A stretch of 64,000 bases of DNA, from the NCBI GenBank assembly GCA_052034805.1, contig JBPOID010000007.1, positions 26,495 to 90,494 on the forward strand, read 5' to 3'. This stretch comes from Candidatus Tayloriibacteriota bacterium (GTDB taxonomy: Bacteria > Patescibacteriota > Minisyncoccia > Phycocordibacterales > PALSA-1337). Position numbers and translations under genes: made by a program. Shown piece by piece: positions 27,578-45,533 of this stretch. Numbering within the stretch: position 1 is the stretch's first letter; each line of letters begins with the position of its first letter. The notes beneath the pieces are model-generated. The model was not told the origin of the DNA. It saw only the letters and a program-made list of their open reading frames with translations, and did not search any database.

Positions 27578-27599
27578 ATTTAAATTTATAAGTATACCT

Positions 27600-28169: not shown

Positions 28170-28241
28170 TTATTTAACAATAATTTTAACATATTTCTAT
28201 TTATATAGAAATTATATATAGAATGGTCTTTTGATAGAGAA

Positions 28242-31236: not shown

Positions 31237-31254
31237 AAGAAATTCCTCAATCAA

Positions 31255-31287
31255 AGAACCGGCCCTAAAGGTCGGTTTTTCTTTTTA
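31255..31287 (+). terminator. Intrinsic terminator
   Basis: aaccggccctaaaggtcggtt followed by tttctttttaat. Confidence 0.5.
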
Positions 31288-31319
31288 ATATAATAGAAAG
31301 TATAAAATAAAAGATAATA

Positions 31320-31350
31320 GAAAAAGCGCGGGGCAGGCCGCGCTTTCTAA
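31320..31350. terminator. GC-rich bidirectional terminator hairpin
   Basis: agcgcgg-ggcagg-ccgcgct flanked by A-run and T-run. It serves the minus-strand gene 31381..31641. Confidence 0.55.
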
Positions 31351-31380
31351 TTTTGTCGTCCCTTGGGAGACGATGTATTG

Positions 31381-31641
31381 TTACGCCGCGATGGCGTGAT
31401 GTTCTTGAATCCTTGGCAAAGCCATAAGGAAACCGAGAAACGTATTCTCTGTAACAATGACTCCATCTGCTTTTTGGACATTATGAGTCATCTCTGTATT
31501 CGTGGGTATAGGATCAACTTCCATACGGAAGCTGTATCTTGTAAGTCTCGTAGCTTTTTCTGGTGTAAGCTCCGAAGCTTGTCTCGTGAATTCCTCGAGA
31601 CTTTCAGTGTCTCTCAAATCTAGCAATACCATAAGTTTCAT
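31381..31641 (-). CDS. Hypothetical small protein (GC-enriched)
   Basis: 86-aa ORF, about 47 % GC, with its own terminator. No family recognised. Confidence 0.35.
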   Translation of the reverse strand: MKLMVLLDLRDTESLEEFTRQASELTPEKATRLTRYSFRMEVDPIPTNTEMTHNVQKADGVIVTENTFLGFLMALPRIQEHHAIAA

Positions 31642-31778
31642 TGACTATCTTTTGACTTTGACCAGCCATGGTTTTGATCAAAAGACATTTACTAATCTGC
31701 CATCACTATATGATAGTTTGGTATAAAAATCAAGTGTATTTGTTGATAATTAGATTATCAGTATTTATCGGTTTTTTA

Positions 31779-31943
31779 ATAATTACTTATTTTAAATCCA
31801 ATATAAATACCCAATATTCCACCTATAGCGGTAAATATTATAGATGAAAAGGAAAGCATTCCTTCTCCCCATATACTAGGTATAAAACCGCCAATAGTTG
31901 AACCTATAAACATTCCTATCCAAATTAAAGTTTTTGAACTCAT
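31779..31943 (-). CDS. Small hydrophobic protein (about 54 aa, two predicted TM helices)
   Basis: Not in the ORF track. Translation MSSKTLIWIGMFIGSTIGGFIPSIWGEGMLSFSSIIFTAIGGILGIYIGFKISNY is cleanly hydrophobic. Located just downstream of the MFS gene on the same strand. Confidence 0.35.
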
Positions 31944-31950
31944 ATAGAGA

Positions 31951-33147
31951 TTATACCATCGATTCCATTGTTATATCTTCTGGTAAATTCATTTTCTCTA
32001 ATTCTTTTCTCTTTTTGTATAAGATTATAAAAGAAATAAATAAACATATTGAACTAAATAAAAATGGTATTATCACATCTAAACCATACATCAATCCTGA
32101 CAAGAATGGTCCGATCATCATACCTAATGATGTAATAGACGATAGTATACCGAGAGATTCACCACGTTCATTCTTTTTTGCTTGTCCTACTATTTGGCTT
32201 GTCATTATTACTCTTAATATTGATTGACTAAAGGTGATTATAAGCAATCCTATACAGAATACATAAAACAATTTTATACTTAGTAATATAAAGCCGAATG
32301 CAAATATAATTAATGCATTTAATTCTAATTTAGGTTCTTCGAAATATTTTAGCCAAATATGTTTCATCGCTAATCCCTGATTGATCGCTATAACTATACC
32401 TATTATTCCGAATATAATACCTCCTACTAATTCATTAAAAGAAAATACATCTCTTAAATATAAAGAGAATACAGCTTGGTATACAGATAATGATAAACCA
32501 AATAAAAACCAAGAAAGATAATTATTTCTAAGTGAATGATTCTTAACAGCTCTTATAATAGGTAAAAAAGGATTTATGCTTATTGGTTTTGTATTTAGAT
32601 TTTTATTAGTTTCTTCTAGAATAAATGTTGCCAATATTCCATTAAATAAAGCCAAGCCACCAACGAAGAAAAATGGCACACTATGTCCTATATGTCCCAA
32701 TACACCACCCAAGAATGGTCCAAGTATAAAAGCAATACCGAATATAGCACCTATAAGTCCTAGATTTGTTGTTCTTTCTTTATCATCTTTGGATATATCT
32801 GATAAATAACTTTGAGCTATGGGGAAATTACCAGCCATTATTCCATCTATTATTCTACCTATGAATAAGAAGAATATATTCGTAGCACTAGCAAAGACAA
32901 ACCATCCTATTGCAGTACTGAATATGCTTAGTATAAGCATTGGTCTACGTCCGAATCTATCTGATAATGCTCCTATAATAGGTGCACTAAAGAATGAAAA
33001 TAATGCATAAATAGAAAATAGGGAAGTTATGATAAAAGCAGAATTACTGAAACTAGCAACATAGAAAGGTAAAGTCGGTATAACTATACCTAGACCTATA
33101 ACGTCTATAAATACGGTTAATAATATTACTAATTTTATTTTCGGCAT
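31951..33147 (-). CDS. MFS transporter (drug:H+ antiporter-like)
   Basis: 12-TM layout and MFS motif A (GALSDRFGRRPMLILS). Confidence 0.75.
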   Translation of the reverse strand: MPKIKLVILLTVFIDVIGLGIVIPTLPFYVASFSNSAFIITSLFSIYALFSFFSAPIIGALSDRFGRRPMLILSIFSTAIGWFVFASATNIFFLFIGRIIDGIMAGNFPIAQSYLSDISKDDKERTTNLGLIGAIFGIAFILGPFLGGVLGHIGHSVPFFFVGGLALFNGILATFILEETNKNLNTKPISINPFLPIIRAVKNHSLRNNYLSWFLFGLSLSVYQAVFSLYLRDVFSFNELVGGIIFGIIGIVIAINQGLAMKHIWLKYFEEPKLELNALIIFAFGFILLSIKLFYVFCIGLLIITFSQSILRVIMTSQIVGQAKKNERGESLGILSSITSLGMMIGPFLSGLMYGLDVIIPFLFSSICLFISFIILYKKRKELEKMNLPEDITMESMV

Positions 33148-33272
33148 TTCATCTATGTATAATTAAAGCTATAGAAGTATAACATATGTATAACTGTTGA
33201 TTGTGTATATATGGATAGCATACTATAATATACAGGATATTTTTACATTGTAATATATTTTTTTAAATTAAT

Positions 33273-33974
33273 ATGATAAAAAAAGATAAAGGTTTTACTC
33301 TTATTGAACTTCTAGTTGTGATTTCAATAATAGGATTATTATCTACTGTTGTTCTAGCTTCCGTATCTGATACTAGATATAGAGCGATAAATGCCACTGT
33401 ATCTCAAGAAGTACGCAATCGAGAAACTGCAATGAATTTGCTTTTGGAAACTACTGATAGAGCATTCCCTGATCCTGGTAATACTTCTATGCCTGGTAAT
33501 ATAGTTGGTATAGGATCTTATTATTGTTTTGCAAAGAATGAGACAGATTGTTATTTTGCTGACACTTTGCTTAGTAGTGCTCCTATAGGTAATGGACTAT
33601 ATTCATTATTCAAAGCAAAAGAAGAAGATCCTCTCATGTTATCTCAATTAGCTACAGTTGGTGGAGGTCCACAAGCCGAATCATATTATTTGAATAATTA
33701 TATTGCTCCAGCAACTTATAAATATGGAACAGTAAAGGTTGGTCCACATAATAAAAGTTATAGTGTCGGTATTTTCTATAGATGTGCTACATCTGTTGTG
33801 AAAGATGGACTAACATACTGTTCTGGTGCAAATATATATTGGGTTCAAGTTAATTCTAGTATATGTAGGAATGGTCAGGTATTACTTTCTGGTGGCGGAA
33901 ATAATAATGTTCTATGTTATCAGGGTGCAGATGGAAATCCACCTTATGGTACCGAAGATACTAGTATTCTATAG
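33273..33974 (+). CDS. Type IV pilin-like protein (prepilin N-terminal domain)
   Basis: Short leader MIKKDKG followed by FTLIELLVVISIIGLLSTVVL. Confidence 0.7.
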   Translation: MIKKDKGFTLIELLVVISIIGLLSTVVLASVSDTRYRAINATVSQEVRNRETAMNLLLETTDRAFPDPGNTSMPGNIVGIGSYYCFAKNETDCYFADTLLSSAPIGNGLYSLFKAKEEDPLMLSQLATVGGGPQAESYYLNNYIAPATYKYGTVKVGPHNKSYSVGIFYRCATSVVKDGLTYCSGANIYWVQVNSSICRNGQVLLSGGGNNNVLCYQGADGNPPYGTEDTSIL

Positions 33975-33995
33975 ATATTGAATAATTATATAAAA

Positions 33996-34508
33996 TCAGA
34001 TTTTTCTACTATCATAGGCCCAATGCAATAATGCTTGTCTTTGTACTGGTCTACAGCTCATATCCATAGCTCTACAATTGTATTTTATTTGATAGATATG
34101 TCTCTTTATCGCTAGCCATCTCTTTATTTGTCTATCATCATCTATACATCTGCGTCCCATATAATATCTACAATACCATTGGAACCATCCGCGAGGATCT
34201 TCCTCGTATATCCAGCCTTTCTTTTGCCATATAGAAAGCGATTGACTAGCATTAACTTTGAAAAAATTAAGCTCAGGGTCTGGTTTATATGAATCTGGAC
34301 TTTGGAATTTGGCTTTAGAAAACCAATCTTTAGGAAATTCCTCGATACAATCTCGCATATATACACCACCGAATACTCCAAGTCCGAGCATTTCTTTTGG
34401 TGTTAGATCTGGTTTGAATCTTTTATCAAAGTTTTTACCTATAGGTTCTTTTAATTCATAGGTATAATTTTTCTGCATTCTATCATTAACTTTGATAATT
34501 TTATTCAT
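33996..34508 (-). CDS. Hypothetical protein (Trp/Tyr/Cys-rich C-terminal half)
   Basis: 170 aa with GWFQWYCRYYMGRRCIDDDRQIKRW. No family assigned. Confidence 0.35.
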   Translation of the reverse strand: MNKIIKVNDRMQKNYTYELKEPIGKNFDKRFKPDLTPKEMLGLGVFGGVYMRDCIEEFPKDWFSKAKFQSPDSYKPDPELNFFKVNASQSLSIWQKKGWIYEEDPRGWFQWYCRYYMGRRCIDDDRQIKRWLAIKRHIYQIKYNCRAMDMSCRPVQRQALLHWAYDSRKI

Positions 34509-34513
34509 TATAT

Positions 34514-35236
34514 TTAATTCAAACGGAATGATACCTTCACTGTTACCATAATATCTTTTTCTATACTAGAAGTATCATAATTTCCATAATCAGATATATC
34601 AACTGAATTAGATTGTAGAACTTGAACTACTCCACTTGAAGCTGATTGTACACTACCTACACTTTGACCAGTACCCTGGGCTATTTTCTCAGCTCTGGCT
34701 TTAGCATCCTGTACTGCTTGTGTTAGAAGAGAGACTCTTAGATCTGGTAATTTCGAATAATAATATTCTAGAGATTGAACTGATATTATAGCTCCTTGTG
34801 CTGCTAATTCTGGTATTTTCTTTGATATTTCTGTGATTTTATTAACATCATCTGATTGAATTGTTATTGTCTGTGCCAATTGATAACGCACTTGATTATT
34901 AGAATTTTGATCATACATTTGATTCATAGAAATAGGACTTGATATGAGATTGTCATTATCTATTCCGAATTTTTTCAATAATTCTTTTGCTAAATTGAAA
35001 TCATGAGAGATATCCTTGTAACCCTGAGAAAGTTCATCAGTCGTTGCGATGCGATTGATAGAAATAATCAATTTTGCTTTGTCAGAAGTAACTTGCTTTT
35101 TCACTGAACCTACAACTGAAAGTATATTTTTATTATTTATTGATTGTGATGAATAATAGAATATACCAAATACCAATGAACTGATAATTAATGCTATACC
35201 AATAATCATTGATGGAGAGAATTTTGATTCATTCAT
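34514..35236 (-). CDS. SIMPL-domain (DUF541) protein
   Basis: N-terminal TM anchor, central ...AQGAIISVQSL..., and a C-terminal VTVKVSFRLN typical of SIMPL/26-kDa periplasmic immunogenic protein family members. Confidence 0.6.
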   Translation of the reverse strand: MNESKFSPSMIIGIALIISSLVFGIFYYSSQSINNKNILSVVGSVKKQVTSDKAKLIISINRIATTDELSQGYKDISHDFNLAKELLKKFGIDNDNLISSPISMNQMYDQNSNNQVRYQLAQTITIQSDDVNKITEISKKIPELAAQGAIISVQSLEYYYSKLPDLRVSLLTQAVQDAKARAEKIAQGTGQSVGSVQSASSGVVQVLQSNSVDISDYGNYDTSSIEKDIMVTVKVSFRLN

Positions 35237-35331
35237 TGAATTTTATTTTAAATTTTAATTATCTATATTTTATAATAATCGTCTATAATAGGCAAAATTG
35301 TTTAATGTTTTAGTATTTGTATAGAAATGAA

Positions 35332-35634
35332 TTATTTTCTGGGTGGTCCCCATTGCCATCTAGGTTTCTCTCCTTTTCTATAACAGATAAATATCAGAAG
35401 GGCAGTCGATATAATAATAGGCAATGCAAATGTAAGGAAATTACTTCCTGAATCAGGATTTCCTGGTATAGATTCTTCTCTTGTGAGCACAAGGGTTAAT
35501 ATAAATGAAATATATAGAATAATGACAAGCCATCCTTGCCATTTCACAGGTGTCCAACCCCAGCCATAGAGTTTAGCTTTGAACCAATAGCCTTTTGGAT
35601 TGTCTTTGAAGTAATTTATATAGTCTTTGATCAT
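35332..35634 (-). CDS. Hypothetical small membrane protein
   Basis: 100 aa, Trp-rich N-terminus (YGWGWTPVKWQGW), two hydrophobic helices. Confidence 0.35.
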   Translation of the reverse strand: MIKDYINYFKDNPKGYWFKAKLYGWGWTPVKWQGWLVIILYISFILTLVLTREESIPGNPDSGSNFLTFALPIIISTALLIFICYRKGEKPRWQWGPPRK

Positions 35635-35701
35635 GTGTGTATTTTAACAGAGATTAAATGGAAATAGTAATGATTGGTTGTAATATTATTTTATATAAAA
35701 G

Positions 35702-35726
35702 AAAACGCATCTTTCTGAGATGCGTT
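35702..35726. terminator. Perfect 10-bp hairpin terminator (bidirectional)
   Basis: aaacgcatct ttctg agatgcgttt flanked by T-runs on both strands. Confidence 0.6.
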
Positions 35727-35742
35727 TTTGATTCTCTTAAAA

Positions 35743-36045
35743 TCAATCTAAGATCCCACATTGACCCTGATTGGGGATCCAAAGCACCGCTTCAGGCCAC
35801 TTTAGAGTTGATCTTTGAAGATTTTGAGGAAAATGAATGACTCGTCCGTCAGGGAAATGGGTGATTTTCGAAATCTTTCCTAGAATCGTCCCCCATTCAC
35901 CATAATAACGGTGTGAGATAAGAATCTCTGTTCCGTTCGAAAGTGCTTGTTCAAAAGCTTCTTTCGATGGGATATTGTCACGCTTAATCCCTATAAAGAT
36001 ACTTCTGGGATTTGAAGGGTAGCCATTTCGGTCTAGACGTGCCAT
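35743..36045 (-). CDS. Hypothetical protein (GC-enriched island)
   Basis: 100-aa ORF, about 47 % GC, followed by a terminator. No family recognised. Confidence 0.3.
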   Translation of the reverse strand: MARLDRNGYPSNPRSIFIGIKRDNIPSKEAFEQALSNGTEILISHRYYGEWGTILGKISKITHFPDGRVIHFPQNLQRSTLKWPEAVLWIPNQGQCGILD

Positions 36046-36075
36046 ACCTGTCCTTTCTTTTTTGAGTTGATGGGT

Positions 36076-36630
36076 TTAGCGAAGTGCGAGCAGTACCACA
36101 ACGAGGTGAAGCCATAAGCAGTTCACAGGATAAACCAAATCTTGCTTTTGTCCTTTCCACCGGAGAATTACAACGATGGTTTGAAAAGCAAACGAGATGG
36201 TCCATAGAAACCAGCATAGGGCGATTTCATTTTGAGGTTTTGTCCAGACACTTTGCAATGTCGGGATGAAACCAATGGTTATACCGAGCTGGAGCATCAT
36301 ATTGGTAACAGTGGGAGACTTGAGTTTCCACCACAAGAGACTTGCTGTGATACCAATCACGAGAACAATACTATCATTTGTACTCAATCCTTTGAGTTGT
36401 CCTTGGAAAAGGGTAAGTAAAAAGGTAAGTATGCATTGAATACTGCTAATGGTTGGAAGAAGACTCTTCCAACCATCCTTGCTCATCGCTTTATAGGAAG
36501 TGAAATTAAGGAGCGTCATAAAGCCCCATACTGCCCATGAAGTGATATTGGGATTGGCATGTCCTTGTAAAGTCTGCCAATTATAGATACCGAAAGCGAG
36601 AACATTTATAAGTCCCGCCATAACACCCAA
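36076..36630 (-). CDS. Hypothetical polytopic membrane protein, paralog B (partner at 27600..28169)
   Basis: Shared motif GFIPTLQSVWTKPQNE and the same length and topology as paralog A, but in a GC-rich context. Confidence 0.5.
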   Translation of the reverse strand: MGVMAGLINVLAFGIYNWQTLQGHANPNITSWAVWGFMTLLNFTSYKAMSKDGWKSLLPTISSIQCILTFLLTLFQGQLKGLSTNDSIVLVIGITASLLWWKLKSPTVTNMMLQLGITIGFIPTLQSVWTKPQNEIALCWFLWTISFAFQTIVVILRWKGQKQDLVYPVNCLWLHLVVVLLALR

Positions 36631-36788
36631 AAGAATGTCTAGTTTCAGAAAATTTCCTCTGTATAGCCTGACGGGATTGTCAGTCTTTTATCATATTACA
36701 ATATAAATAGTATAAAGTCAAATATACTTTGGGTTAATCTAATCTCTAATTACAATACTTAATATTTCTATTATTTATTTTATATAAT

Positions 36789-37034
36789 CTAAGATTTCTT
36801 CCATCTAGGGGCGAATCTAATCATCCAAGCAAAAAATTTAGCTTTGATTGGACTAGTACCATTTTTTCTCATTTGTTCATAACAGACTTTCTGAAATCCT
36901 TTAAGATCTCCCTCATAACAAAGCTTTCCTCCTTTAAAACAATAACTACAATAACGTGGATTCTCACGATTATCTCCCATCGGGTCCATATTAAATGGCA
37001 TTAGACAACTCTCACAACTTTTTGTTTTATTCAT
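36789..37034 (-). CDS. Zinc-ribbon domain protein (Zn_ribbon_2-like)
   Basis: CESCLMPF...ENPRYCSYCFKGG pattern resembles the family CxxCGMPL...YCSYC. Confidence 0.5.
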   Translation of the reverse strand: MNKTKSCESCLMPFNMDPMGDNRENPRYCSYCFKGGKLCYEGDLKGFQKVCYEQMRKNGTSPIKAKFFAWMIRFAPRWKKS

Positions 37035-37065
37035 GGTATTTATTATATCACTTTTTATATAAAAA

Positions 37066-38532
37066 CTACTCTAAATCAAATCTAACTACACACTTATCAG
37101 CCCGTACTCTCGGAAGATTAAGTCTACTCCATTCGGTATCGCCACCTTTGAGACTTATAGCTTTTATTCCAACTTGCTCGGCTTTGTAAGCGGCCAATCG
37201 GCTTGTATTGCCACGTCTGCAGACAAATATGACAGCTGTATTTTTGATCAGGTTTTTCTTGTTCTTTTTGAGATAGTCATCAAGACTATGAACTGGGACA
37301 TGGATTGATCCAGGAATATGATGGTCCTCGTACTCGCTATCATTTCTTACGTCAATAACAAGATAGCCATCTTTGTGAGCAATTTCTTCTTTATGCTTAA
37401 CTTTCTCCCAAATTTGTTCAGGTGTTTCGGTAAAGAGTAGTGAAAATGTCTCCTGTGAGTCGAGTTCTTTGATAGTTGGAATAGGTGTGGCAGGAATATG
37501 AGCGCCTTTTTCTTTGAGTAATTGCTCGTTTTCAATTTTTGGAAAATGTGACGGGTCGAGGTATTCAAAATACTCATCAATATATGGAAATGGACTATCA
37601 GGACAGACAAATACTGCAATCTTTTCCTCGCCAGACAATCTTTGCTTTGAAAGATGATTGAGAAGACCGACAAGCGCAAAGCCAGAACTTGGTCCGACAA
37701 AAAGTCCTGCACGACAGAGGTCCATAGACATTTTGAATGATTCGGTTGTGCCGATTTCTACCTGATGATCAAGTACAGACTTCCAGTCAAAGGCAATCTC
37801 TCGTAAGAGATTGTTTGTTCGCACCCCGGGTACTGGGTTGTTGGCAATACGAGATACTCCAACTATTTCAATGTCTGACTTTTTCTCTTTGAGATATGAA
37901 CCGATACCAACAACTGATCCAGTCGTACCAAGACCAACTGATAACATCGATATCTTGCCCTTAGTTTGTTCCCATATCTGCGGACCAGTCCATTTGTAGT
38001 GAGCGGCAGGATTGGCCTCATTGTCATATTGACCAGGATTAAACCATCCTTTTTCCTTGGACCACACTTTTGCTTTGTAGATTCCGCTTGTAGGATCGCT
38101 TGGATCAGGACAGATCGGCTCTTTATTGACGATAACTTCGTTACCGAGGAATCGTAGGATATTCAATTTGCCTCGGCTTACCTCATGAGACACAACTGCC
38201 TTGGTGTGGGGTATGCCCATAAGTCGTGCTATAACAGCCAGTGAGAAAACAGTATTGCCTGAAGAATTTTCGATAATAGTATCAGGCAATAATCCTTTTT
38301 CTTTACGGTCCAAAAGCATATTGTATGCAGGCAATGACTTTACATTCGCAAGTGGCAATGCATTCATAAGCTTGGCAAAAATACGCACGCCGTCTTTGCG
38401 ATACGGATTCAGGTGGTCGGGTATCTCTACAAGTGGCGTGTATGGCGCATTGTCGGGGTTGAGAAAATCAAGAACAGCGTCGCTGCCTTCAAAAGTATTG
38501 AGTATTTTTTGTTCGTTAGTTTTTGGAATCAT
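37066..38532 (-). CDS. Fusion of a PLP-dependent cysteine-synthase-like (fold type II) enzyme with a rhodanese domain
   Basis: N-terminal TPLVEIP...NVKSLPAYNML...GTTGSVVGIGSYL matches the CysK/CBS-family layout. C-terminal YLVIDVRNDSEYEDHHIPGSIHVP...FVCRRGNTS is a rhodanese with catalytic Cys. Confidence 0.6.
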   Translation of the reverse strand: MIPKTNEQKILNTFEGSDAVLDFLNPDNAPYTPLVEIPDHLNPYRKDGVRIFAKLMNALPLANVKSLPAYNMLLDRKEKGLLPDTIIENSSGNTVFSLAVIARLMGIPHTKAVVSHEVSRGKLNILRFLGNEVIVNKEPICPDPSDPTSGIYKAKVWSKEKGWFNPGQYDNEANPAAHYKWTGPQIWEQTKGKISMLSVGLGTTGSVVGIGSYLKEKKSDIEIVGVSRIANNPVPGVRTNNLLREIAFDWKSVLDHQVEIGTTESFKMSMDLCRAGLFVGPSSGFALVGLLNHLSKQRLSGEEKIAVFVCPDSPFPYIDEYFEYLDPSHFPKIENEQLLKEKGAHIPATPIPTIKELDSQETFSLLFTETPEQIWEKVKHKEEIAHKDGYLVIDVRNDSEYEDHHIPGSIHVPVHSLDDYLKKNKKNLIKNTAVIFVCRRGNTSRLAAYKAEQVGIKAISLKGGDTEWSRLNLPRVRADKCVVRFDLE

Positions 38533-39484
38533 GGCTAAAAGTAAATTCAGGGTCTATTTGGTTTGTAAGATCACCGAATCGTTCTTTTACAAAACCCTGT
38601 GCGACGTATTTTTTATGTAATTCCCAGATTTTTTTGAGTCTCGCATCTCGATTGTCTGGTTCGGCATTTAATGTACTAAAAACTTTCTCAAGTAATTCTT
38701 GATTATTGATATTAAGTTTCGATACAGACAATGCGGCACCATCTTGGTCGATAGTGCGAATATGTTCGTCATCAGTGAAGAATCCGATGATCTTTTTCTC
38801 GGTAATATGCGATTTTATAAATTCCATATCATTATCATTTCTGATTTTGTTACCAATTACTCGCACGCTATCTGCGACATCGGCTTCAGTCGCCAATTCC
38901 ATGTATTTGGTATAAACCTCAATACTTCGCATGGTTGGTTCAACGATGAGGCAGGTCAGATCGAACTGAGCATGAAGTGTCCCTGCAAATGAATCTACCC
39001 CTGCGACCATATCAGCAATTACATAGCCGTTCTTGTCGTCGGTGTGATTCAAAATGCTTTCGAGGATGGCAAGATTGTTGTGATAGCAACTAGCGCCGAT
39101 GTCTTCTTCTTGGTAGGTACCAACCGCAAAGACAGAAAGATTGCCTCGATGAAGTCCGTACGAGCCGATAGGTGTCTCCTTGATTGATTCAATTTTTATA
39201 ATGTTCGACTTGCGTGTCGGCGGTGTTGATTTGCGGAATGCACCAAGGTTTGTAATGTCGTTGTTACCAATAAGCCACTTTTTTATTTCCTCTGACACTT
39301 TCGGGTGCGATAGATGTTTATCGAAGGGAATACCATCAAAACCAAGTAGCTCTGGTGCATGGATGTTGAGATCAGCATCAAAAACAGCTACCTCTTCGGT
39401 AGTCTTTTTTGAAACATATGTGGCGAATGAGGCGGAAAGCGTACTCTTGCCCGATCCGCCTTTTCCAACAAAGGCGATTCTCAT
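38516..39484 (-). CDS. MinD/ParA-superfamily P-loop ATPase (CooC-like)
   Basis: Deviant Walker A IAFVGKGGSGKST and downstream VFDAD. Overlaps the PLP/rhodanese gene by 17 nt. Confidence 0.6.
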   Translation of the reverse strand: MRIAFVGKGGSGKSTLSASFATYVSKKTTEEVAVFDADLNIHAPELLGFDGIPFDKHLSHPKVSEEIKKWLIGNNDITNLGAFRKSTPPTRKSNIIKIESIKETPIGSYGLHRGNLSVFAVGTYQEEDIGASCYHNNLAILESILNHTDDKNGYVIADMVAGVDSFAGTLHAQFDLTCLIVEPTMRSIEVYTKYMELATEADVADSVRVIGNKIRNDNDMEFIKSHITEKKIIGFFTDDEHIRTIDQDGAALSVSKLNINNQELLEKVFSTLNAEPDNRDARLKKIWELHKKYVAQGFVKERFGDLTNQIDPEFTFSHDSKN

Positions 39485-39487
39485 ATA

Positions 39488-39835
39488 TTAATCGGTGCAC
39501 TTATTACAAGACCCTCGAACAGTAATATCTTCAACCTTATGACCCTTGATCGCTTTGTGGGGAATATGTATTTCTTCAACCTTTCCGCAATCATTGCAGA
39601 TGAAATGATCATGGCTTTCGTGAGCTGATTCATACGCCACAGACTTGTTATCAATCATCACTCTCTTTATCTTCTTGTCAGAGAGTAGTTGCTCGACATT
39701 GCGAAAGACTGTCGAATAATCGGCATCGGGAATAACTTTATGGATTTCAGCAATGGTCAAAAGATGCTTTTTCTTGAGCAATGTAAGTATATGTTCTTTG
39801 TATATGTTTGTTCTCATAATGCAAGTAATTTGCAT
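39488..39835 (-). CDS. Fur-family metalloregulator
   Basis: N-terminal winged helix, HESHDHFICNDCGKVEEI and a C-terminal CNKC. 4 nt upstream of the ATPase gene. Confidence 0.7.
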   Translation of the reverse strand: MQITCIMRTNIYKEHILTLLKKKHLLTIAEIHKVIPDADYSTVFRNVEQLLSDKKIKRVMIDNKSVAYESAHESHDHFICNDCGKVEEIHIPHKAIKGHKVEDITVRGSCNKCTD

Positions 39836-39900
39836 AATAAACTAAGACAAGAGAAAAGTAAAGTTCCAGATAATGCAGGAAAATGATAAAATGACACAAC

Positions 39901-41067
39901 ATGACACGATTACACAAAATTACGCTTGGTATGCTTTTTGCACTCTGCCTCGTATCTCCAGTATTGGTGCAGGCTCAAGAACTCATTCAGGATAAGGTAG
40001 ATATTATTCGAGCAAAGGTGCTTGAAATTGTAAAAGAAGAAGTTAAAAATGTTCCCGGAACAGATATTCGATCACAAAATCAGACAATCAAGGTTGAAAT
40101 TCTCGAAGGAAATGAAAAAGGAAAACAGCTCACCGTCGATAACGATTACTTAAATCTAGATGTTGGAGAAGTCTTTTATTTGAGACATCAATATGGTGGT
40201 ATGGATGGGACTAACTATTATTCAGTCGATGAACCGTATCGTCTACCTCATGTACTCATTCTCGTAGCTCTTTTTATAATTGCTATTTTTGTATTTGGTG
40301 GCATTCAAGGTGTGCGTGGACTGGTGAGTCTTGTCGGTAGTTTTCTTTTGATTATGTACGTGCTCTTGCCTGGAATACTGCATGGATATTCGCCACTCTT
40401 AGTAACGATAGGTGTGTCTTCGCTCATTATCATCGTCGGATCATATATCACGCATGGTTTTAACAAGACGACAAGCTCGGCGGTTCTAGGAATGGTTATC
40501 ACCGTTATCATCACCGGACTTCTTGCTGTCTGGGCGGTCCATTTCACTCGACTCAGTGGCTTCGGTTCAGAAGAAGTTACTTATCTCAATCTAAATACGA
40601 GAGGTACACTCGATGTGATCGGACTTCTCCTTGGTGGAATCATGATTGGTCTCCTCGGGGTGCTCTATGACGTAGCTATTGGTCAGGCGATTTCAGTTGA
40701 GGAGTTGATTCGCATTGCGCCTCATGTACCAAAGAAAACTATATATCAACGAGCGATCCGTATCGGCCGAGAGCATATCGGGGCACTCGTGAACACTCTT
40801 GCCATAGCCTATGTCGGTGCATCCTTGCCACTTCTGCTTTTGTTCGTCCAAACATCGACTTCGAGTCTTGCTAATATTGCTAACAGAGAAATATTTGCCA
40901 CAGAGATCGTCCGTACCATGATCGGTAGTATTGGCCTTATCTTGGCCGTACCTATTACAACCTTTGTGGCCGTTTGGTTGCTTATGAGTACGAAGAAGAA
41001 CAATGTATCGCAGGAAAAACTACAGCAAGAACAAGAGGCGCTGGAACATGCCGGGCATCATCATTAA
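39901..41067 (+). CDS. Polytopic membrane protein, possibly YibE/F-like
   Basis: Signal peptide, about 100-aa extracytoplasmic domain, then 7-8 TM helices. His-rich C-terminus (HAGHHH). Confidence 0.35.
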   Translation: MTRLHKITLGMLFALCLVSPVLVQAQELIQDKVDIIRAKVLEIVKEEVKNVPGTDIRSQNQTIKVEILEGNEKGKQLTVDNDYLNLDVGEVFYLRHQYGGMDGTNYYSVDEPYRLPHVLILVALFIIAIFVFGGIQGVRGLVSLVGSFLLIMYVLLPGILHGYSPLLVTIGVSSLIIIVGSYITHGFNKTTSSAVLGMVITVIITGLLAVWAVHFTRLSGFGSEEVTYLNLNTRGTLDVIGLLLGGIMIGLLGVLYDVAIGQAISVEELIRIAPHVPKKTIYQRAIRIGREHIGALVNTLAIAYVGASLPLLLLFVQTSTSSLANIANREIFATEIVRTMIGSIGLILAVPITTFVAVWLLMSTKKNNVSQEKLQQEQEALEHAGHHH

Positions 41068-41257
41068 TTTAGTATAGATATTGCACTAGATATAGGAACC
41101 TTTTGGAAGAGAAATTATGCCAACATTTGGCTATAAAATGAGAAGCAGGGTTTTTTTGGAATTGTGAGGATGAGCGAGTAAGATTATTTAATGGAATATA
41201 AACAGAAAACCCACCATCTCACGACAGGGGTTCCTGTGCTGAGTTGGTGGGCTATGA

Positions 41258-41665
41258 TTAGAAACGAAGGTCAATCCGTGGAGCTGTAAAAATGAAGCCG
41301 TCTGCAGTCTGAAAGCAAACACATCCATTCACAGCAATACTCAAAGGTGTTTCGATAATCGTAACTTTTTGACCTTTTACGTATTCTTTCCACTCGTTGC
41401 CAACATATCGAACAACATTGCCAATCATCTTGTCTTCAAACCGAGTTGCAAATTGAATTGCTGTAGGTTTGTAGTCACGGATTTTTGCAATCTCTTCTTT
41501 GAGCTCTGGATACAGGCGCTCCATTTCAAGGAGACCGTTGTCGCAGAGATGGTGTCTGACTGAGTTCCAAAGGAACTTTGTTTCCTCGCTTAGCATATCA
41601 ATGTCTTTTCTGGTTGGTTGTTTAATTATGAAAATTGCTACTAAATGTAGTAATATCACATACAA
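41258..41665 (-). CDS. Hypothetical protein (true start probably the internal Met, MLSEETK)
   Basis: 135-aa ORF at the edge of the GC-enriched block. Confidence 0.3.
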   Translation of the reverse strand: MYVILLHLVAIFIIKQPTRKDIDMLSEETKFLWNSVRHHLCDNGLLEMERLYPELKEEIAKIRDYKPTAIQFATRFEDKMIGNVVRYVGNEWKEYVKGQKVTIIETPLSIAVNGCVCFQTADGFIFTAPRIDLRF

Positions 41666-41684
41666 ATAAATATGTCAAGTATTG

Positions 41685-41703
41685 GCTCCGCGACCAGGGC
41701 TCG
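41685..41703. repeat. 19-nt exact direct repeat of the tRNA-Asn 3' end (att-like site)
   Basis: gctccgcgaccagggctcg is identical to 43197..43215, which covers the discriminator, 3' acceptor strand and T-stem of the tRNA at 43198..43270. Confidence 0.8.
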
Positions 41704-41736
41704 GTCATTATGAATTGTAGGAAAGTAAAAATGGAA

Positions 41737-42168
41737 CTAAGACTCAGGAATTTGTTTCTTGTGTATAAATGATACAAAAGAAAAGATAACAGAAGATATA
41801 ACGCTAAGTGGCATCAAGGTTCTCCATATTGAATCCATTATAAGACCGTACTGAGGCATTGTTCCTCCGAATTGATAAGGAGTGAATATCATGATTACAT
41901 AAGAAACTAGCATACCGATAACAAGAATAAAGAAAGAAATCTTGCTCATTAGGGTGATTTTATTTTTGAATGCACAATAAATATAAAATATACCAAGATA
42001 AAGAGCTGTGATTGGAGCAAATAGTCGAGCGAAATATTGAGGATTGGTTATATGGGCAACTGAATATGAAAAATCATCATAAAACCAACTAAACATAATT
42101 ACACCAAAAATTATTAATGCTAAACCAAATAAATAGTGAAAAAATTTAATCATGGATTTATTATACAT
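41737..42168 (-). CDS. Hypothetical membrane protein (4 TM)
   Basis: 143 aa, hydrophobic, AT-rich. Confidence 0.4.
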   Translation of the reverse strand: MYNKSMIKFFHYLFGLALIIFGVIMFSWFYDDFSYSVAHITNPQYFARLFAPITALYLGIFYIYCAFKNKITLMSKISFFILVIGMLVSYVIMIFTPYQFGGTMPQYGLIMDSIWRTLMPLSVISSVIFSFVSFIHKKQIPES

Positions 42169-42329
42169 CCTTATGAATTGATCATCAATTATAAACTGTG
42201 CTCACAACGCTCCGTCTTTCTCGCCCTGATTCGTAGTAAAAATAGAAAACCCACCTATTTTATGATAGGAGGATTTTCTATTGAAATAGTTAAAAACTGA
42301 TGTTTTTTTAGGAAATCAATAATTCAAAA

Positions 42330-42854
42330 CTAATTTCTATAATCCGTCCAGTATTCTCCAGTATCTATAGATTTAATACAATATTTTTTGTATTCTCCAG
42401 TATTATCACAAATATTTTTATCTTTTTTTAAGAATGCTATTTTTGCAAAACATTCTCTATAGTGTCTTTCTCCAGAAGGGAGGTTGTAACATATATTTTC
42501 ATCTTTCAAATCATATGCTACAGATTGATAACATAATTCACTTGATTGAGTGTTCTGTGTTACTACAGTTTGTTTGCAAGCTTTAATATCTTTAAATTTA
42601 ATACCATAATCTGAGAAGCAATCATTTTTTACTTCAGGTATTAGATTACAAACATTCATATCTTTTAAGCTTATTGCTTCTCCAGAAAGACATTCTCCTT
42701 TATATTTTTCATTACTACATTTTTTAATTATTCTTTCACTTACATTATCTCCAGTCTCTTGTCGAATACCTAATGGTATGTTTTTTGATTTATATAAATA
42801 AAGACCACCCACAATAATTAATAAAATTATTGGAACTAAAATTATTTTTTTCAT
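42330..42854 (-). CDS. Secreted/anchored cysteine-rich repeat protein
   Basis: N-terminal signal/TM MKKIILVPIILLIIVGGLYLY followed by repeated C-x(n)-C units (14 Cys in 150 aa). Confidence 0.45.
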   Translation of the reverse strand: MKKIILVPIILLIIVGGLYLYKSKNIPLGIRQETGDNVSERIIKKCSNEKYKGECLSGEAISLKDMNVCNLIPEVKNDCFSDYGIKFKDIKACKQTVVTQNTQSSELCYQSVAYDLKDENICYNLPSGERHYRECFAKIAFLKKDKNICDNTGEYKKYCIKSIDTGEYWTDYRN

Positions 42855-42949
42855 TTATTTTTTACTAATAGAATTATAATACGACTCTTTAATTATAATT
42901 TATTTTAGATTATAAGTAAAAAGAGATAATTATTTTTTTAAATTTATCC

Positions 42950-43192
42950 TTAAATAGTAGCAAGATATATCTGAACAGTACCAATACCAATTGAAACAAT
43001 GATCGCAACTATTGCTAAATATAGAGATGATTTTGCAAAACGTTCGGAAGATTCTTCATTTTTCAATGCTAACCTTCTAAGTAGTTCATATTGAGAGAGT
43101 ACACCGAAACTAGGGTCTGAATTATTAATTATTTGAAATAATTCCTCTTCATTAAGTTTTCTCACATCTTTACCAAAATTTGTATTATTCAT
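42950..43192 (-). CDS. Small tail-anchored hypothetical protein (shortened from ORF 42950..43366)
   Basis: The long ORF reads through the tRNA gene. The start is moved to MNNTNFGK immediately downstream of the tRNA. C-terminal TM helix. Confidence 0.35.
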   Translation of the reverse strand: MNNTNFGKDVRKLNEEELFQIINNSDPSFGVLSQYELLRRLALKNEESSERFAKSSLYLAIVAIIVSIGIGTVQIYLATI

Positions 43193-43197
43193 TTCTG

Positions 43198-43270
43198 CTC
43201 CGCGACCAGGGCTCGAACCTGGGACATCCTCGTTAACAGCGAGGCGCTCTACCAACTGAGCTATCGCGGA
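43198..43270 (-). tRNA. tRNA-Asn (anticodon GTT)
   Basis: Reverse complement folds as a cloverleaf. Acceptor TCCGCGA/TCGCGGA, D-arm GCTCAGTTGGTAGAGC, anticodon stem CCTCG/CGAGG with loop CTGTTAA, T-arm CCAGGTTCGAGCCCTGG. No CCA encoded. Confidence 0.85.
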
Positions 43271-44144: not shown

Positions 44145-45533
44145 TTATCTTAGGAAATCTTTATAAAGCATTTCCTTTTTACCTTCTGGTATTACTTTTT
44201 CTATGAAAAGCATTCCATCTTTATATGATGCTTTTGTTATTTTTACTCTTATATTTTTGTGAAAGAAAAAGGCAGATGGCCATGTATCATATGCTTGTAT
44301 TTTGAGATAATTTTTATATGGATCATCATTTAAATCTATTTTTCCATCTTCTTTTTCTATTTTATCTGTATATGTAGCTTTTGTATGATCTTGTTCTATT
44401 GCTTTTATTTTTCCATTTATCCAATCAGGTAATATTTCTACTAGGAGATCACTACCAGTTTCTACTAGAGCTTTACCTAATACATCTTTCTTTGGTGGCC
44501 ATGGTTCTACTGAGATTTCTTTTGAAGCTACTATAGGTCCATGATCCATTTCACTATCTATACTCATTATAGTTACTCCAGTCTTCCTATCATCAGAAAG
44601 TATTGCACTTTCTATAGGGCAAGAACCACGATATTTGGGTAATAGGGAAGCATGAATATTCAGAGTTTTTGCTTTTGGTATATTTATTATATTATCGGGT
44701 ATTATTTTCCCATAGGCGATAACGACGAATACATCACAATTGTATTTCTTTAATTCCTTTTCTAATTCTTTATTATCTCTTAATTTTACTGGTTGTATTA
44801 CTGGTATATTATGTTCATTTGCCCAAACTTTTGCTTCGGATGCTGTTATATTTAGATTTCTACCTTTTGGTTTATCTGGTGAAGTTACTACGAAAGAAAT
44901 ATGGAATCCTGCTTTATATAATTTCTCCAAGGTTATTGTGGAATAATACGGTGTACCGAAGAATCCTATTTTTATTTTATTATTAGGTCCTTTTCTTGTT
45001 TCTATTTTTTCAAGAATTATTTCTTCACCTTCTGGTGGGGAATCTTTCACATGATAGGCATTATCTATAAATAATATTCCATTCAAATGATCTATTTCAT
45101 GTTGGAATACTTGAGCCAATATTCCACTAGCACCTCTTTCTATCTTTTCTCCTTTTTCATTGTATGCTTTTATTATTACCTTTTTTGCCCTTTTCATCAT
45201 TCCGTATTTCCATCTTACGGAAAGACAACCTTCTTCTACTTCTTGTTTTTCTTTTGAGATTTTCAATATTTCTGGATTTATGAAAATAAGATCAGATCCA
45301 TCGCCTTTGTATTTCTTATCTGCAGATTTTAATACTTCTCCAGATACTACGAATATTCTAAGACTTTCTCCTATCTGAGGTGCGGCTATGGCTATACCGT
45401 CATCTTGACTCTTTAGGGCTATTTTCATATCCTCGATAATTTCTTTTATTTTTGTAGAATTCATCTCGGCAACAGTTAAAGCCTTTGCTTTTTTTCTCAA
45501 GACTTCATTACCATTTTGAACTATATTTCTCAT
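44145..45533 (-). CDS. Fusion protein: peptide deformylase (N-terminal) + methionyl-tRNA formyltransferase (C-terminal)
   Basis: Def motifs GIAIAAPQIG, EGCLSV, HEIDHLNG in residues 1-165. Fmt N-domain FGTPYYS...NIHASLLPKYRGSCPIESAIL and C-domain follow in the same frame with no stop. Confidence 0.8.
   Translation of the reverse strand: MRNIVQNGNEVLRKKAKALTVAEMNSTKIKEIIEDMKIALKSQDDGIAIAAPQIGESLRIFVVSGEVLKSADKKYKGDGSDLIFINPEILKISKEKQEVEEGCLSVRWKYGMMKRAKKVIIKAYNEKGEKIERGASGILAQVFQHEIDHLNGILFIDNAYHVKDSPPEGEEIILEKIETRKGPNNKIKIGFFGTPYYSTITLEKLYKAGFHISFVVTSPDKPKGRNLNITASEAKVWANEHNIPVIQPVKLRDNKELEKELKKYNCDVFVVIAYGKIIPDNIINIPKAKTLNIHASLLPKYRGSCPIESAILSDDRKTGVTIMSIDSEMDHGPIVASKEISVEPWPPKKDVLGKALVETGSDLLVEILPDWINGKIKAIEQDHTKATYTDKIEKEDGKIDLNDDPYKNYLKIQAYDTWPSAFFFHKNIRVKITKASYKDGMLFIEKVIPEGKKEMLYKDFLR

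What the first reader, a model, noticed from the sequence alone, without database searches (positions are those of the whole stretch)
41685..43270. 19-nt direct repeat of the tRNA-Asn 3' end 1.5 kb from the tRNA gene: an integration-site signature without an integrase
The sequence gctccgcgaccagggctcg occurs at 41685..41703 and again at 43197..43215, where it is the 3' end of tRNA-Asn(GTT) on the minus strand. Duplication of a tRNA 3' end is the classical attL/attR footprint of tyrosine-integrase-mediated insertion. The copy at 41685 coincides with the edge of the GC-rich block. The 1.5 kb between the copies carries only a membrane protein, a Cys-rich secreted protein and a tail-anchored mini-protein. 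No integrase is present in the window. The likely explanations are a decayed integrative element or tandem insertions at one tRNA.
Basis: seen in the sequence. Interest (0 to 1): 0.6.

Follow-up and report, generated by a model that had tools for sequence, protein, structure and literature searches.

The report
Relic hairpin copying the tRNA-Asn tail
The second copy of the tRNA-Asn tail is real, but it is most likely the end of a worn-out copy of a conserved hairpin element that sits beside this tRNA in many Patescibacteria, not the far edge of a 1.5-kb integrated element.

Summary
The 19-nt direct repeat is confirmed: exactly two copies in 64 kb, none expected by chance, one being the 3' end of tRNA-Asn(GTT). 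No integrase or recombinase domain was found in the window.

The attL/attR reading is only partly supported. In at least eight other Patescibacteria, tRNA-Asn is followed within 20-60 nt by a strongly folding 100-170-nt hairpin element, here called TDE. It has no Rfam match. Its 3' arm is a near or exact copy of the tRNA 3' end, with no gene in between.

The window holds both diagnostic blocks of this element: a 20-mer (19/20 identical to L065) at 42209-42228, and TGAC plus the 19-mer at 41685-41707, followed by a TTGACA box. The window copy is degenerate. A 463-bp piece carrying the 143-aa gene splits it, and about 0.95 kb carrying two small genes separates it from the tRNA.

tRNA-Asn is nevertheless a real integration hot spot in this phylum. 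The resident integrases are large serine recombinases, not tyrosine integrases. They cross over at the extreme 3' end of the tRNA, so they cannot make a 19-nt repeat.

The function of the TDE is unknown; a tRNA-derived structured RNA is my best guess.

The parts
43197..43270 (-). tRNA-Asn(GTT) gene. Its 3'-terminal 19 nt (43197-43215) are the proximal repeat copy. CCA is not encoded.
   Evidence: ARAGORN; Rfam RF00005 at 69.7 bits; sequence.
41685..41707 (-). Distal repeat copy (41685-41703) plus the TGAC junction (41704-41707). Together they form the 3' arm of the degenerate hairpin element (TDE).
   Evidence: Exact 19-mer. The 23-mer TGACCGAGCCCTGGTCGCGGAGC is identical to the 3' end of the L065 element, and the TGAC junction is shared with L009 and L078.
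42209..42228 (-). TDE 5' motif CAGGGCGAGAAAGACGGAGC: the 5' strand of closing helix P1 plus the start of P2.
   Evidence: 19/20 identical to L065. Among all loci it occurs only in elements downstream of tRNA-Asn, apart from one 3-mismatch hit in L092. Its CAGGGC can pair with GCCCUG of the distal 19-mer.
42171..42195 (-). AT-rich hairpin (UUUAUAAUUGAUGAUCAAUUCAUAA) at the position of hairpin P3 of the element.
   Evidence: Sequence and alignment of the reconstructed element. The reconstructed copy folds weakly (z = -1.1), so this copy is degenerate.
41718..42180 (-). 463-bp insert that splits the element. It carries the 143-aa four-helix membrane protein gene (41737-42168) and is flanked by a 12/13-nt direct repeat (41705-41717 and 42168-42180).
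   Evidence: Repeat family D16; ORF. Homologs at 62-74% identity lie in other Patescibacteria contigs that are not next to tRNA-Asn.
42250..42269 (-). Intrinsic-terminator-like hairpin just upstream (in tRNA sense) of the TDE 5' motif. Relatives have a terminator hairpin between tRNA-Asn and the element.
   Evidence: compare the trailers.
42330..42854 (-). 174-aa Cys-rich secreted protein gene, lying between the tRNA and the element.
   Evidence: ORF. It belongs to a large Cys-rich repeat family: 434 representative clusters at E<=1e-3. No Pfam or PHROG hit.
42950..43192 (-). ORF of about 80 aa with a C-terminal membrane helix. Its ATG is 4 nt after the tRNA 3' end.
   Evidence: Sequence and ORF list. 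No family hit and no homolog in any fetched locus.
41650..41678 (-). Promoter-like TTGACA-17 nt-TATTAC directly after the distal copy, upstream of the first gene of the GC-rich block.
   Evidence: Read from the sequence. The same TTGACA box follows the element in L009, L036, L037, L059 and L078. The consensus scan did not list it because the -10 hexamer ends in C.
41258..41665 (-). 112/135-aa ORF, the first gene beyond the element and the start of the GC-rich block.
   Evidence: No Pfam hit.

Best explanation
The distal 19-mer is the 3' arm of a degenerate, interrupted copy of a conserved hairpin element (TDE) linked to tRNA-Asn. It is not the far junction of a 1.5-kb integrated element.

In its intact form the element lies directly downstream of tRNA-Asn, after a terminator hairpin. 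It is 100-170 nt long. Its closing helix is built from a copy of the tRNA's T-stem and acceptor 3' strand (...CGAGCCCUGGUCGCGGAGC) paired with an upstream complementary strand (CCAGGGC..., and in some genomes also GCUCCGCGA). Two or three internal hairpins replace the T-loop. A -35-like TTGACA box follows.

So any genome with the element carries a second copy of the tRNA-Asn tail. In the window that copy has stayed identical to the tRNA over 19 nt.

In the window's lineage two things then happened. About 0.95 kb carrying two small genes and a terminator came to lie between the tRNA and the element. A 463-bp piece carrying a membrane-protein gene was inserted into the element near its 3' end.

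Shown: homology of the two blocks, the structure and covariation of the element in relatives, and the composite nature of the spacer.

Inferred: the element originated by partial duplication of the tRNA 3' end and acts as an RNA, on the tRNA-sense strand, in the tRNA-Asn trailer. My guesses for its role are a tRNA-like processing or stability signal, or an insulator between the tRNA terminator and the next promoter. I give that functional guess only about 0.3.
For: - Two diagnostic blocks are present in the right order and orientation. One is the 20-mer at 42209-42228, 19/20 identical to L065. The other is the 23-mer TGAC+19-mer, 23/23 identical to L065. A chance 19/20 match within 1.5 kb has a probability of about 1e-7 by my calculation.
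- The same element follows tRNA-Asn in L009, L036, L037, L059, L064, L065, L078 and L079, and partly in L051 and L054. There is no ORF between the tRNA and the element. Its 3' arm matches the tRNA tail exactly in L065 and imperfectly in the others.
- These genomes are distant from one another, with HPF protein identity of 32-74%. Yet the element core is 75% identical per column.
- The element is strongly structured. Fold z-scores are -4.7 to -6.4. The consensus fold has 32 pairs, 92.9% of cells paired, and 9 pairs with compensatory changes. None of 500 shuffles reached this, and slid controls gave 33-51% pairing. The second subtype has 11 of 31 pairs with compensatory changes.
- The fold is more stable on the tRNA-sense strand in 8 of 8 cases, which points to RNA.
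- TTGACA follows the 3' arm both in the window and in five relatives.
- The sequence directly after the tRNA is unrelated in the window, L065, L009 and L078. That is not expected of the integrase-proximal arm of one element family.
- The 143-aa gene has homologs elsewhere in ordinary, non-tRNA contexts.
- A 12/13-nt direct repeat flanks its 463-bp segment.
Against: - The window copy is poor. The covariance model of the intact core scores only 8.9 bits (E = 0.18) on the 3' arm and 4.8 bits on the 5' part. The reconstructed element folds no better than shuffles (z = -1.1). Assignment therefore rests on two short sequence blocks and their context.
- The element family is defined from only about 10 loci, all pre-selected for carrying the exact 19-mer.
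- Subtypes differ between fairly close genomes: L065 and L059 share 68% HPF identity. This looks like turnover rather than steady vertical descent.
- In L065 the bases after the element's 3' arm (TGAGAATTT) equal those after the true tRNA in L063 and L082. In L079 the trailer after the first unit resembles the tRNA trailer of L064. The 3' arm may therefore be a displaced ancestral tRNA end, which is what integration produces.
- A terminator hairpin separates the tRNA from the element in several relatives, so transcription of the element is unproven.
- No closer relative exists to show the state before the insertions. There is nothing between 73% and 99% def-fmt identity.
Confidence: 0.6

Rival explanations
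1. Decayed integrative element. A site-specific recombinase of the tyrosine-integrase kind that crosses over in the T-loop inserted an element into tRNA-Asn. The incoming DNA restored the tRNA tail, and the displaced original tail is the copy at 41685. The integrase and most cargo were later lost. On this view the conserved hairpin core seen in relatives is the integrase-distal attachment arm of that element family, left behind as a scar.
For: - A repeat running from the T-loop to the 3' end is the textbook identity block of tRNA-targeting integrases (established knowledge).
- The junction TGAC|CGAGCC is the same in four genomes, as expected for a conserved attachment arm.
- The trailer after the distal copy in L065 and L079 looks like a native tRNA trailer.
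- One MAG has a clean 24-nt orphan copy (L030) on a different contig from its tRNA, with a recombinase next to the tRNA (L031).
- The three ORFs have no homologs in the syntenic loci of relatives.
- There are zero SNPs across 41.5-43.0 kb between two strains.
Against: - There is no integrase or integrase fragment in the window.
- None lies between the tRNA and the distal copy in any of the four genomes with this junction.
- The tRNA-proximal arm is not conserved between them.
- Identity covers only 5 of the 7 T-loop bases.
- The core shows compensatory base changes and strand-asymmetric stability. Neither is expected of a dead scar.
- The exact 19-mer and two patterns taken from the TDE core, including its 5' motif, are absent from 2.9 million viral contigs.
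- The 143-aa gene occurs in ordinary chromosomal contexts elsewhere.
Confidence: 0.2
2. Footprint of the tRNA-Asn-specific large serine recombinase (LSR) elements that occupy this site in relatives, with the recombinase since deleted.
For: - LSR genes (Resolvase + Recombinase domains) converge on tRNA-Asn and overlap its 3' end by 33-40 nt in L005, L022, L029, L031, L070, L073, L086, L092 and L096.
- The closest relative of the window (L070/L218, 72-78% aa identity) has such an element of more than 10 kb at exactly this position.
- The family is large: 2043 homologs.
Against: - The conserved C-terminal PTLLR motif is followed by tRNA-complement codons in integrated copies, and by a different native tail in a copy with no tRNA nearby (L265). 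This places the crossover within the last few bases of the tRNA.
- Accordingly, no tRNA repeat of 10 nt or more exists within 10 kb in L217 or L218.
- tblastn of the L070 recombinase against the window finds only the tRNA complement itself.
Confidence: 0.05
3. Inert remnant of a partial tandem duplication, or of a second tRNA-Asn gene. On this view the resemblance to the hairpin element of other genomes is incidental.
For: - L079 carries tandem units that unequal crossing-over between the tRNA tail and the element's 3' arm could generate.
- The window copy has lost most of its structure.
Against: - Beyond the 19 nt there is no similarity to the rest of the tRNA.
- The 5' motif, the TGAC junction and the TTGACA box tie the copy to the conserved element.
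- The copy is still 19/19 identical, although the surrounding element has decayed.
Confidence: 0.1

Closest known systems
attL/attR repeats of tRNA-targeting tyrosine-integrase elements (T-loop sublocation; from my knowledge of the classification of tRNA integration sites by K. P. Williams, 2002)
   Same: A direct repeat of the tRNA 3' end running from the T-loop to the discriminator, 19 nt long, with foreign-looking genes between the copies and an intact tRNA.
   Different: There is no integrase. The tRNA-proximal arm is not conserved. The identity block lacks 2 of the 7 T-loop bases. The distal copy is embedded in a structured, covarying hairpin that occurs without cargo in other genomes. 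The spacer is composite.
Large serine recombinase integrases (phiC31, Bxb1, A118, TP901-1 type)
   Same: Relatives carry proteins with Resolvase, Recombinase and zinc-ribbon domains next to this very tRNA, inside elements with methylases and a replication ATPase. The identity between attP and attB is short.
   Different: From my own knowledge, described members mostly target protein-coding genes or intergenic sites. This family targets the extreme 3' end of tRNA-Asn, and its reading frame runs into the tRNA complement. None is present in the window, and the family cannot produce a 19-nt repeat.
tRNA-like structures and tRNA-derived non-coding RNAs (the tRNA-like domain of tmRNA, bacterial Y-RNA-like YrlA, viral 3' tRNA-like structures)
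   Same: The element has a helix that copies the acceptor and T-stem stack of a tRNA. In one subtype both acceptor strands are present (GCUCCGCGA...UCGCGGAGC), with the same U1-A72 stem and G73 as tRNA-Asn.
   Different: The T-loop is replaced by 60-100 nt of internal hairpins. There is no D arm or anticodon arm. ARAGORN and Rfam do not call it. Nothing shows processing, CCA addition or charging.
Intergenic imperfect palindromes (REP/BIME, ERIC, MITE-like elements)
   Same: A 100-170-bp imperfect palindrome lying between a terminator and the next promoter, with a variable interior and tandem copies in one genome (L079).
   Different: It is single-copy per genome in the data at hand, always next to tRNA-Asn, and its arms copy the tRNA tail. 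It has no terminal inverted repeats of a known transposon and no transposase.

Membership tests
attL/attR pair of a tRNA-integrated element (tyrosine integrase) | Direct repeat of the tRNA 3' segment bounding the insert | tested here: met
   Exact 19-nt repeat, 1512 bp start to start.
attL/attR pair of a tRNA-integrated element (tyrosine integrase) | Integrase gene, or a recognisable remnant, inside the repeats, usually next to the tRNA | tested here: not met
   No Pfam, PHROG or tblastn signal in 41704-43196 or anywhere else in the window.
attL/attR pair of a tRNA-integrated element (tyrosine integrase) | Related genomes show an empty site that lacks exactly the segment between the repeats | tested here: inconclusive
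   No relative exists between 73% and 99% identity, and the 98.5%-identical strain has the same arrangement. More distant genomes have the duplication without genes.
attL/attR pair of a tRNA-integrated element (tyrosine integrase) | Element-side arms conserved among members of the element family | tested here: not met
   The distal arm is conserved, but the tRNA-proximal arm is unrelated in the window, L065, L009 and L078.
Large serine recombinase integrative element at tRNA-Asn | Resolvase + Recombinase domain protein converging on the tRNA | tested here: not met
   Present in relatives but absent from the window.
Large serine recombinase integrative element at tRNA-Asn | Far junction compatible with the family's crossover point | tested here: not met
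   The crossover is inferred to lie at the last few bases of the tRNA. No long repeats occur in L217 or L218. The window repeat is 19 nt.
Functional tRNA or tRNA pseudogene (distal copy) | Cloverleaf recognised by ARAGORN or Rfam RF00005 | tested here: not met
   Only one tRNA is called in the window. There is no similarity beyond 19 nt.
Any Rfam 15 family (for the hairpin element) | Covariance-model match at the gathering score or at E<=5 | tested here: not met
   Only tRNA and group I intron hits were found in the window and in eight element-bearing loci.
tRNA-Asn-linked hairpin element (TDE; family defined here) | 5' motif CAGGGC(G/T)(A/C)GAA(A/C)GNCGGAGC upstream of, and on the same strand as, a tRNA-tail copy preceded by TGAC | tested here: met
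   42209-42228 and 41685-41707.
tRNA-Asn-linked hairpin element (TDE; family defined here) | Intact P1-P2-P3 fold scored by covariance model R1 | tested here: not met
   8.9 and 4.8 bits only. The reconstructed copy has z = -1.1. P2 is lost and the element is split by 463 bp.
tRNA-Asn-linked hairpin element (TDE; family defined here) | Position within about 60 nt of the tRNA-Asn 3' end, followed by a TTGACA box | tested here: inconclusive
   TTGACA is present 6 nt after the copy. But the 5' motif lies 968 nt from the tRNA because of two intervening ORFs.
tRNA-Asn-linked hairpin element (TDE; family defined here) | Transcribed and processed as an RNA | not testable with these tools
   The only evidence is indirect: lower folding energy on the tRNA-sense strand in 8 of 8 cases and compensatory changes.

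The most novel reading that the evidence does not exclude
The hairpin element beside tRNA-Asn is an undescribed family of structured RNA in Patescibacteria. It derives from, and still mimics, the acceptor and T-stem stack of tRNA-Asn. It would be handled by the tRNA machinery (RNase P/Z, CCA-adding enzyme, perhaps the AspRS/GatCAB route to Asn-tRNA), or serve as a decoy or insulator at a tRNA that integrative elements constantly attack. The window would hold a dead copy into which genes were inserted.
Probability: 0.3. Interest if true: 0.65.

Novelty: new variant of a known kind. Interest (0 to 1): 0.4.

Why it matters
- A duplicated tRNA tail is routinely taken as proof of an integrated island. 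This case shows a conserved host-side element that produces the same signature without an integration event. Island-finding software that keys on tRNA-fragment repeats would miscall it across a whole phylum.
- The element itself is a candidate new structured RNA in organisms with very small genomes, where conserved non-coding sequence is rare.
- The comparison also uncovered a large family of serine integrases with a single, highly conserved natural target, the end of tRNA-Asn. This matters for understanding mobile DNA in Patescibacteria and possibly for recombinase tool discovery.

Tried and rejected
- **Third copy of the tRNA tail at the other edge of the GC-rich block (tandem-island model).** None was found with up to 3 mismatches or by blastn-short.
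- **Integrase remnants.** tblastn of the L070 serine recombinase, a second serine recombinase and two tyrosine integrases from related elements against the window gave nothing but the tRNA complement.
- **19-mer as a generic repeat.** It has two copies in the window. It has 93 hits in 185,579 species genomes. In low-GC Patescibacteria these are the tRNA-Asn tail, and the hits in high-GC genomes lie outside any called tRNA and are most likely unrelated. It has zero hits in viral contigs.
- **'Orphan' 19-mers in L036, L051, L054, L063 and L095.** These turned out to be the 3' exon of tRNA-Asn genes split by group I introns, not att sites.
- **Metagenome scan for more elements.** The gapped pattern was too loose. 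All 120 loci returned were high-GC or lacked a tRNA nearby, so the scan gave no usable hit.
- **Viral-contig scans for the element's 5' motif and 3' junction.** Only unrelated coding hits in high-GC phages.
- **Known RNA families** (SRP RNA, 6S, tmRNA, raiA and others). No Rfam hit even at E<=5.
- **Closer relatives to define an empty site.** None exists in the protein collection between 73% and 99% identity.
- **Far junction of the L070/L218 and L217 elements.** Not reached within 10 kb.
- **Idea that the distal copy is a primer-binding-like or retro-copied tRNA end.** It reads ...GGAGCCA here, but not in other genomes. I dropped this as a 1-in-16 coincidence.
Full report
**Observation**

The 19-mer GCTCCGCGACCAGGGCTCG is present exactly twice in the 64-kb window, at 41685-41703 and 43197-43215. 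No further copy exists with up to three mismatches, and none was expected in shuffled sequence. The second copy is the 3' end of tRNA-Asn(GTT) on the minus strand at 43197-43270 (ARAGORN; Rfam 69.7 bits). It runs from the T-loop through the T-stem and acceptor 3' strand to the discriminator plus one C. Identity ends sharply on both sides. A sensitive search with the whole tRNA finds no third copy. The distal copy lies at the right-hand edge of a block of about 40% GC (about 35.7-41.7 kb) in a genome of about 31% GC.

**Organism and gene content**

The flanking genes are a def-fmt fusion, PriA, MurA, MreB, HPF and a YggU-like protein. The best matches place the window in Patescibacteria. No ORF of 150 aa or more carries a Resolvase, Recombinase or Phage_integrase domain. 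The gene-caller tables of three overlapping public contigs show none either. The GC-rich block encodes YibE/F, Fur, a CbiA/ParA-like ATPase, a PALP-rhodanese enzyme and a zinc-ribbon protein.

**Is the 19-mer a generic repeat?**

No. It is absent from 2.9 million viral contigs. It occurs in 93 stretches among 185,579 species genomes. In low-GC Patescibacteria loci it is the tRNA-Asn tail. The hits in high-GC genomes lie outside any called tRNA and are most likely unrelated. Several apparent orphan copies (L036, L051, L054, L063, L095) are the 3' exons of tRNA-Asn genes interrupted in the anticodon loop by group I introns (Rfam 73-81 bits). That phenomenon is already published (PMC13011429). 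True extra copies are found in L065 (19 nt, 96 bp from the tRNA) and L030 (24 nt, on another contig of the same MAG as its tRNA).

**tRNA-Asn is an integration hot spot, but for serine recombinases**

- The synteny tRNA-Asn/YggU/HPF/def-fmt/PriA is conserved across the phylum.
- In the closest relative (L070/L218, 72-78% protein identity), a 577-aa protein with Resolvase and Recombinase domains converges on the tRNA. Its last 12 codons and stop codon...LRDQGSNLGHPR-TAA, are read from the complement of the tRNA 3' half. The stop codon lies in the anticodon loop.
- Behind it lies an element of more than 10 kb with two DNA methylases, an AAA_25 ATPase and an FtsK-like gene.
- Homologs sit in the same overlapping arrangement in L005, L022, L029, L031, L073, L086, L092 and L096.
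- Resolvase, Recombinase and the recombinase zinc ribbon are the commonest Pfam families among 58 ORFs within 4 kb downstream of tRNA-Asn.
- The family is large, with 2043 homologs.
- Of the best 120, 94 end at or run into tRNA-complement codons right after a conserved PTLLR motif. At least nine continue with a different tail (L-x-D-D-V-R-T...).
- One of those nine (P0065, L265) has no tRNA nearby and lies among defence genes, as expected of an unintegrated or differently placed copy.
- Comparing its sequence (CCTACTCTGCTCTGGGCTTTGG) with an integrated copy (L217, TCAACCTTGCTCCGGGAGTAGG) places the exchange within the last few bases of the tRNA.
- Consistently, neither L217 nor L218 has any tRNA repeat of 10 nt or more within 10 kb.

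This family therefore explains why the site is variable, but it cannot explain a 19-nt repeat. No trace of it exists in the window.

**What the distal copy is**

I printed the 230 nt downstream of tRNA-Asn for all Patescibacteria loci. A conserved element, which I call TDE, appears in L009, L036, L037, L059, L064, L065, L078 and L079. It is cut off by the end of the available sequence in L051 and L054.

- It begins 20-60 nt after the tRNA, usually after a terminator hairpin.
- It contains the motif CCAGGGC(G/T)(A/C)GAA...
- It ends with ...CCCTGGTCGCGGAGC, a near or exact copy of the tRNA tail.
- A TTGACA box follows.
- In one subtype the 5' end also carries GCTCCGCGA. The element then has both strands of the tRNA-Asn acceptor stem and T-stem, with internal hairpins in place of the T-loop.

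The element is strongly structured. Fold z-scores are -4.7 to -6.4. For the subtype closest to the window (L065, L009, L078, L036):
- The consensus fold has 32 pairs with 92.9% of cells paired.
- Nine pairs show compensatory changes.
- No shuffle reaches these values, and sliding the partners drops pairing to 33-51%.

The second subtype shows 11 of 31 pairs with compensatory changes. Folding is more stable on the tRNA-sense strand in all eight cases. The genomes concerned share only 32-74% HPF identity. No Rfam family matches, even at E<=5. Neither of the two patterns taken from the element's core occurs in a related context in viral contigs.

**The window carries a degenerate copy**

- The motif CAGGGCGAGAAAGACGGAGC lies at 42209-42228 on the tRNA strand, 19/20 identical to L065. 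Among all loci it is found only in these elements, apart from one 3-mismatch hit in L092.
- The distal 19-mer is preceded by the same TGAC junction as in L065, L009 and L078. It is followed after 6 nt by TTGACA-17-TATTAC.
- Between the two blocks lie an AT-rich hairpin at the place of hairpin P3 (42171-42195) and a 463-bp segment with the 143-aa membrane-protein gene. A 12/13-nt direct repeat flanks that segment (41705-41717 and 42168-42180).
- Removing the segment gives an 83-nt sequence. It aligns with the family at both ends and keeps helix P1. It has lost P2 and folds no better than shuffles (z = -1.1).
- The covariance model accordingly gives only 8.9 and 4.8 bits.
- Between the tRNA and the 5' motif lie an ORF of about 80 aa, the 174-aa Cys-rich gene and a terminator.

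The 174-aa protein belongs to a widespread Cys-rich repeat family (434 clusters). The 143-aa protein has homologs at 62-74% identity in other Patescibacteria contigs that are not next to tRNA-Asn. So the 1.5 kb is composite, and the repeat predates it.

**Weighing the readings**

The conserved-element reading gets 0.6. It explains the following:
- the shared blocks;
- the absence of any integrase in all four genomes with the TGAC junction;
- the unrelated tRNA-proximal sequences;
- the covariation.

The decayed-element reading gets 0.2. These facts keep it alive:
- The repeat has the classical extent.
- The trailer after the element's 3' arm in L065 (TGAGAATTT) equals the trailer after the true tRNA in L063 and L082.
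- In L079 the trailer after the first of two tandem units resembles the tRNA trailer of L064. The 3' arm may therefore be a displaced ancestral tRNA end.
- Subtypes change between fairly close genomes.

Unequal crossing-over, or homology-facilitated transfer using the 19-nt identity, would give the same patterns. A serine-recombinase footprint gets 0.05 and an inert duplication gets 0.1.

**Limits**

- The element family rests on about ten loci chosen because they contain the exact 19-mer.
- My one metagenome scan used too loose a pattern and returned no usable hit: all 120 loci were high-GC or lacked a tRNA nearby.
- No relative exists between 73% and 99% identity to show an empty site.
- The 98.5%-identical strain has the same arrangement and no SNP in 41.5-43.0 kb.
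- Transcription of the element is not shown.

**Verdict**

The integration-scar interpretation is partly right about the locus but probably wrong about this repeat. The most interesting by-products are a candidate new tRNA-mimicking structured element and a large family of serine integrases specific for tRNA-Asn. Interest is 0.4.

Noticed in passing
L070:1813-3546 (= L218:10001-11734); also L005, L022, L029, L031, L073, L086, L092, L096, L217:10001-11668, L265:10001-11743: A large family of serine recombinases (2043 homologs) integrates at the extreme 3' end of tRNA-Asn in Patescibacteria. The gene converges on the tRNA. After a conserved PTLLR motif, its last codons and stop codon are read from the tRNA complement. 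Copies without a tRNA nearby keep a longer native tail, so integration rewrites the integrase C-terminus.
   Followed up: partly
L036:1905-2156, L051:5936-6158, L054:142-390, L063:790-1012, L095:1378-1603: Group I introns (Rfam RF00028, 73-81 bits) interrupt the anticodon loop of tRNA-Asn, so ARAGORN misses these genes. This is already described in PMC13011429.
   Followed up: yes
window 35700-41680: A GC-rich block (about 40% against 31%) encodes YibE/F, Fur, a CbiA/ParA-like ATPase, a PALP-rhodanese enzyme and a zinc-ribbon protein. Between the window and a 98.5%-identical strain (L219), SNP density is about 5% inside 37-41.5 kb against under 1% in the flanks. This suggests an exchanged or hypervariable accessory island. 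No repeat or recombinase marks its left edge.
   Followed up: partly
window 30900-43200 compared with L064:4081-6664: A DEAD-box helicase (69% identical) lies 1.3 kb from tRNA-Asn in L064 but 12.5 kb away in the window. An HI0933-like flavoprotein is likewise near tRNA-Asn in L056. About 11 kb downstream of the tRNA appears to be lineage-specific.
   Followed up: partly
window 41683-41703: In tRNA sense the distal copy is followed by CA, so it reads ...GGAGCCA like a mature CCA-tailed tRNA. The real gene does not encode CCA. Other genomes do not share this, so it is probably a coincidence.
   Followed up: partly
window 43190-43203: The ATG of the ORF of about 80 aa lies 4 nt after the tRNA 3' end. 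The GGAG of the tRNA tail sits at Shine-Dalgarno distance, which suggests possible co-transcription with the tRNA.
   Followed up: no
window 41197-41215 and 42237-42255: Two nearly identical terminator sequences (17/19 nt) follow the 112/135-aa ORF and the 174-aa ORF. This hints at a duplicated module.
   Followed up: no
L079:1-640 (Paceibacterota MAG WC_11): Two hairpin-element units lie in tandem after tRNA-Asn. The trailer after the first unit resembles the tRNA trailer of L064. This fits unequal crossing-over or repeated insertion at the tRNA tail.
   Followed up: partly
L217:2981-9548: The element next to tRNA-Asn in a 682-kb contig carries, besides the tRNA-adjacent serine recombinase, a second serine recombinase, a ParB-like protein and a tyrosine integrase. 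It may be composite or tandem.
   Followed up: no
window 25900-28200: A second, smaller GC-rich patch (about 39%) holds three ORFs (171, 297 and 189 aa) without Pfam hits. A homolog of the 189-aa membrane protein lies about 1 kb from the 143-aa gene homolog in L223.
   Followed up: no
window 44145-45533: Peptide deformylase and methionyl-tRNA formyltransferase are fused into one 462-aa protein. Some relatives have the fusion and others (L217) have separate genes.
   Followed up: no
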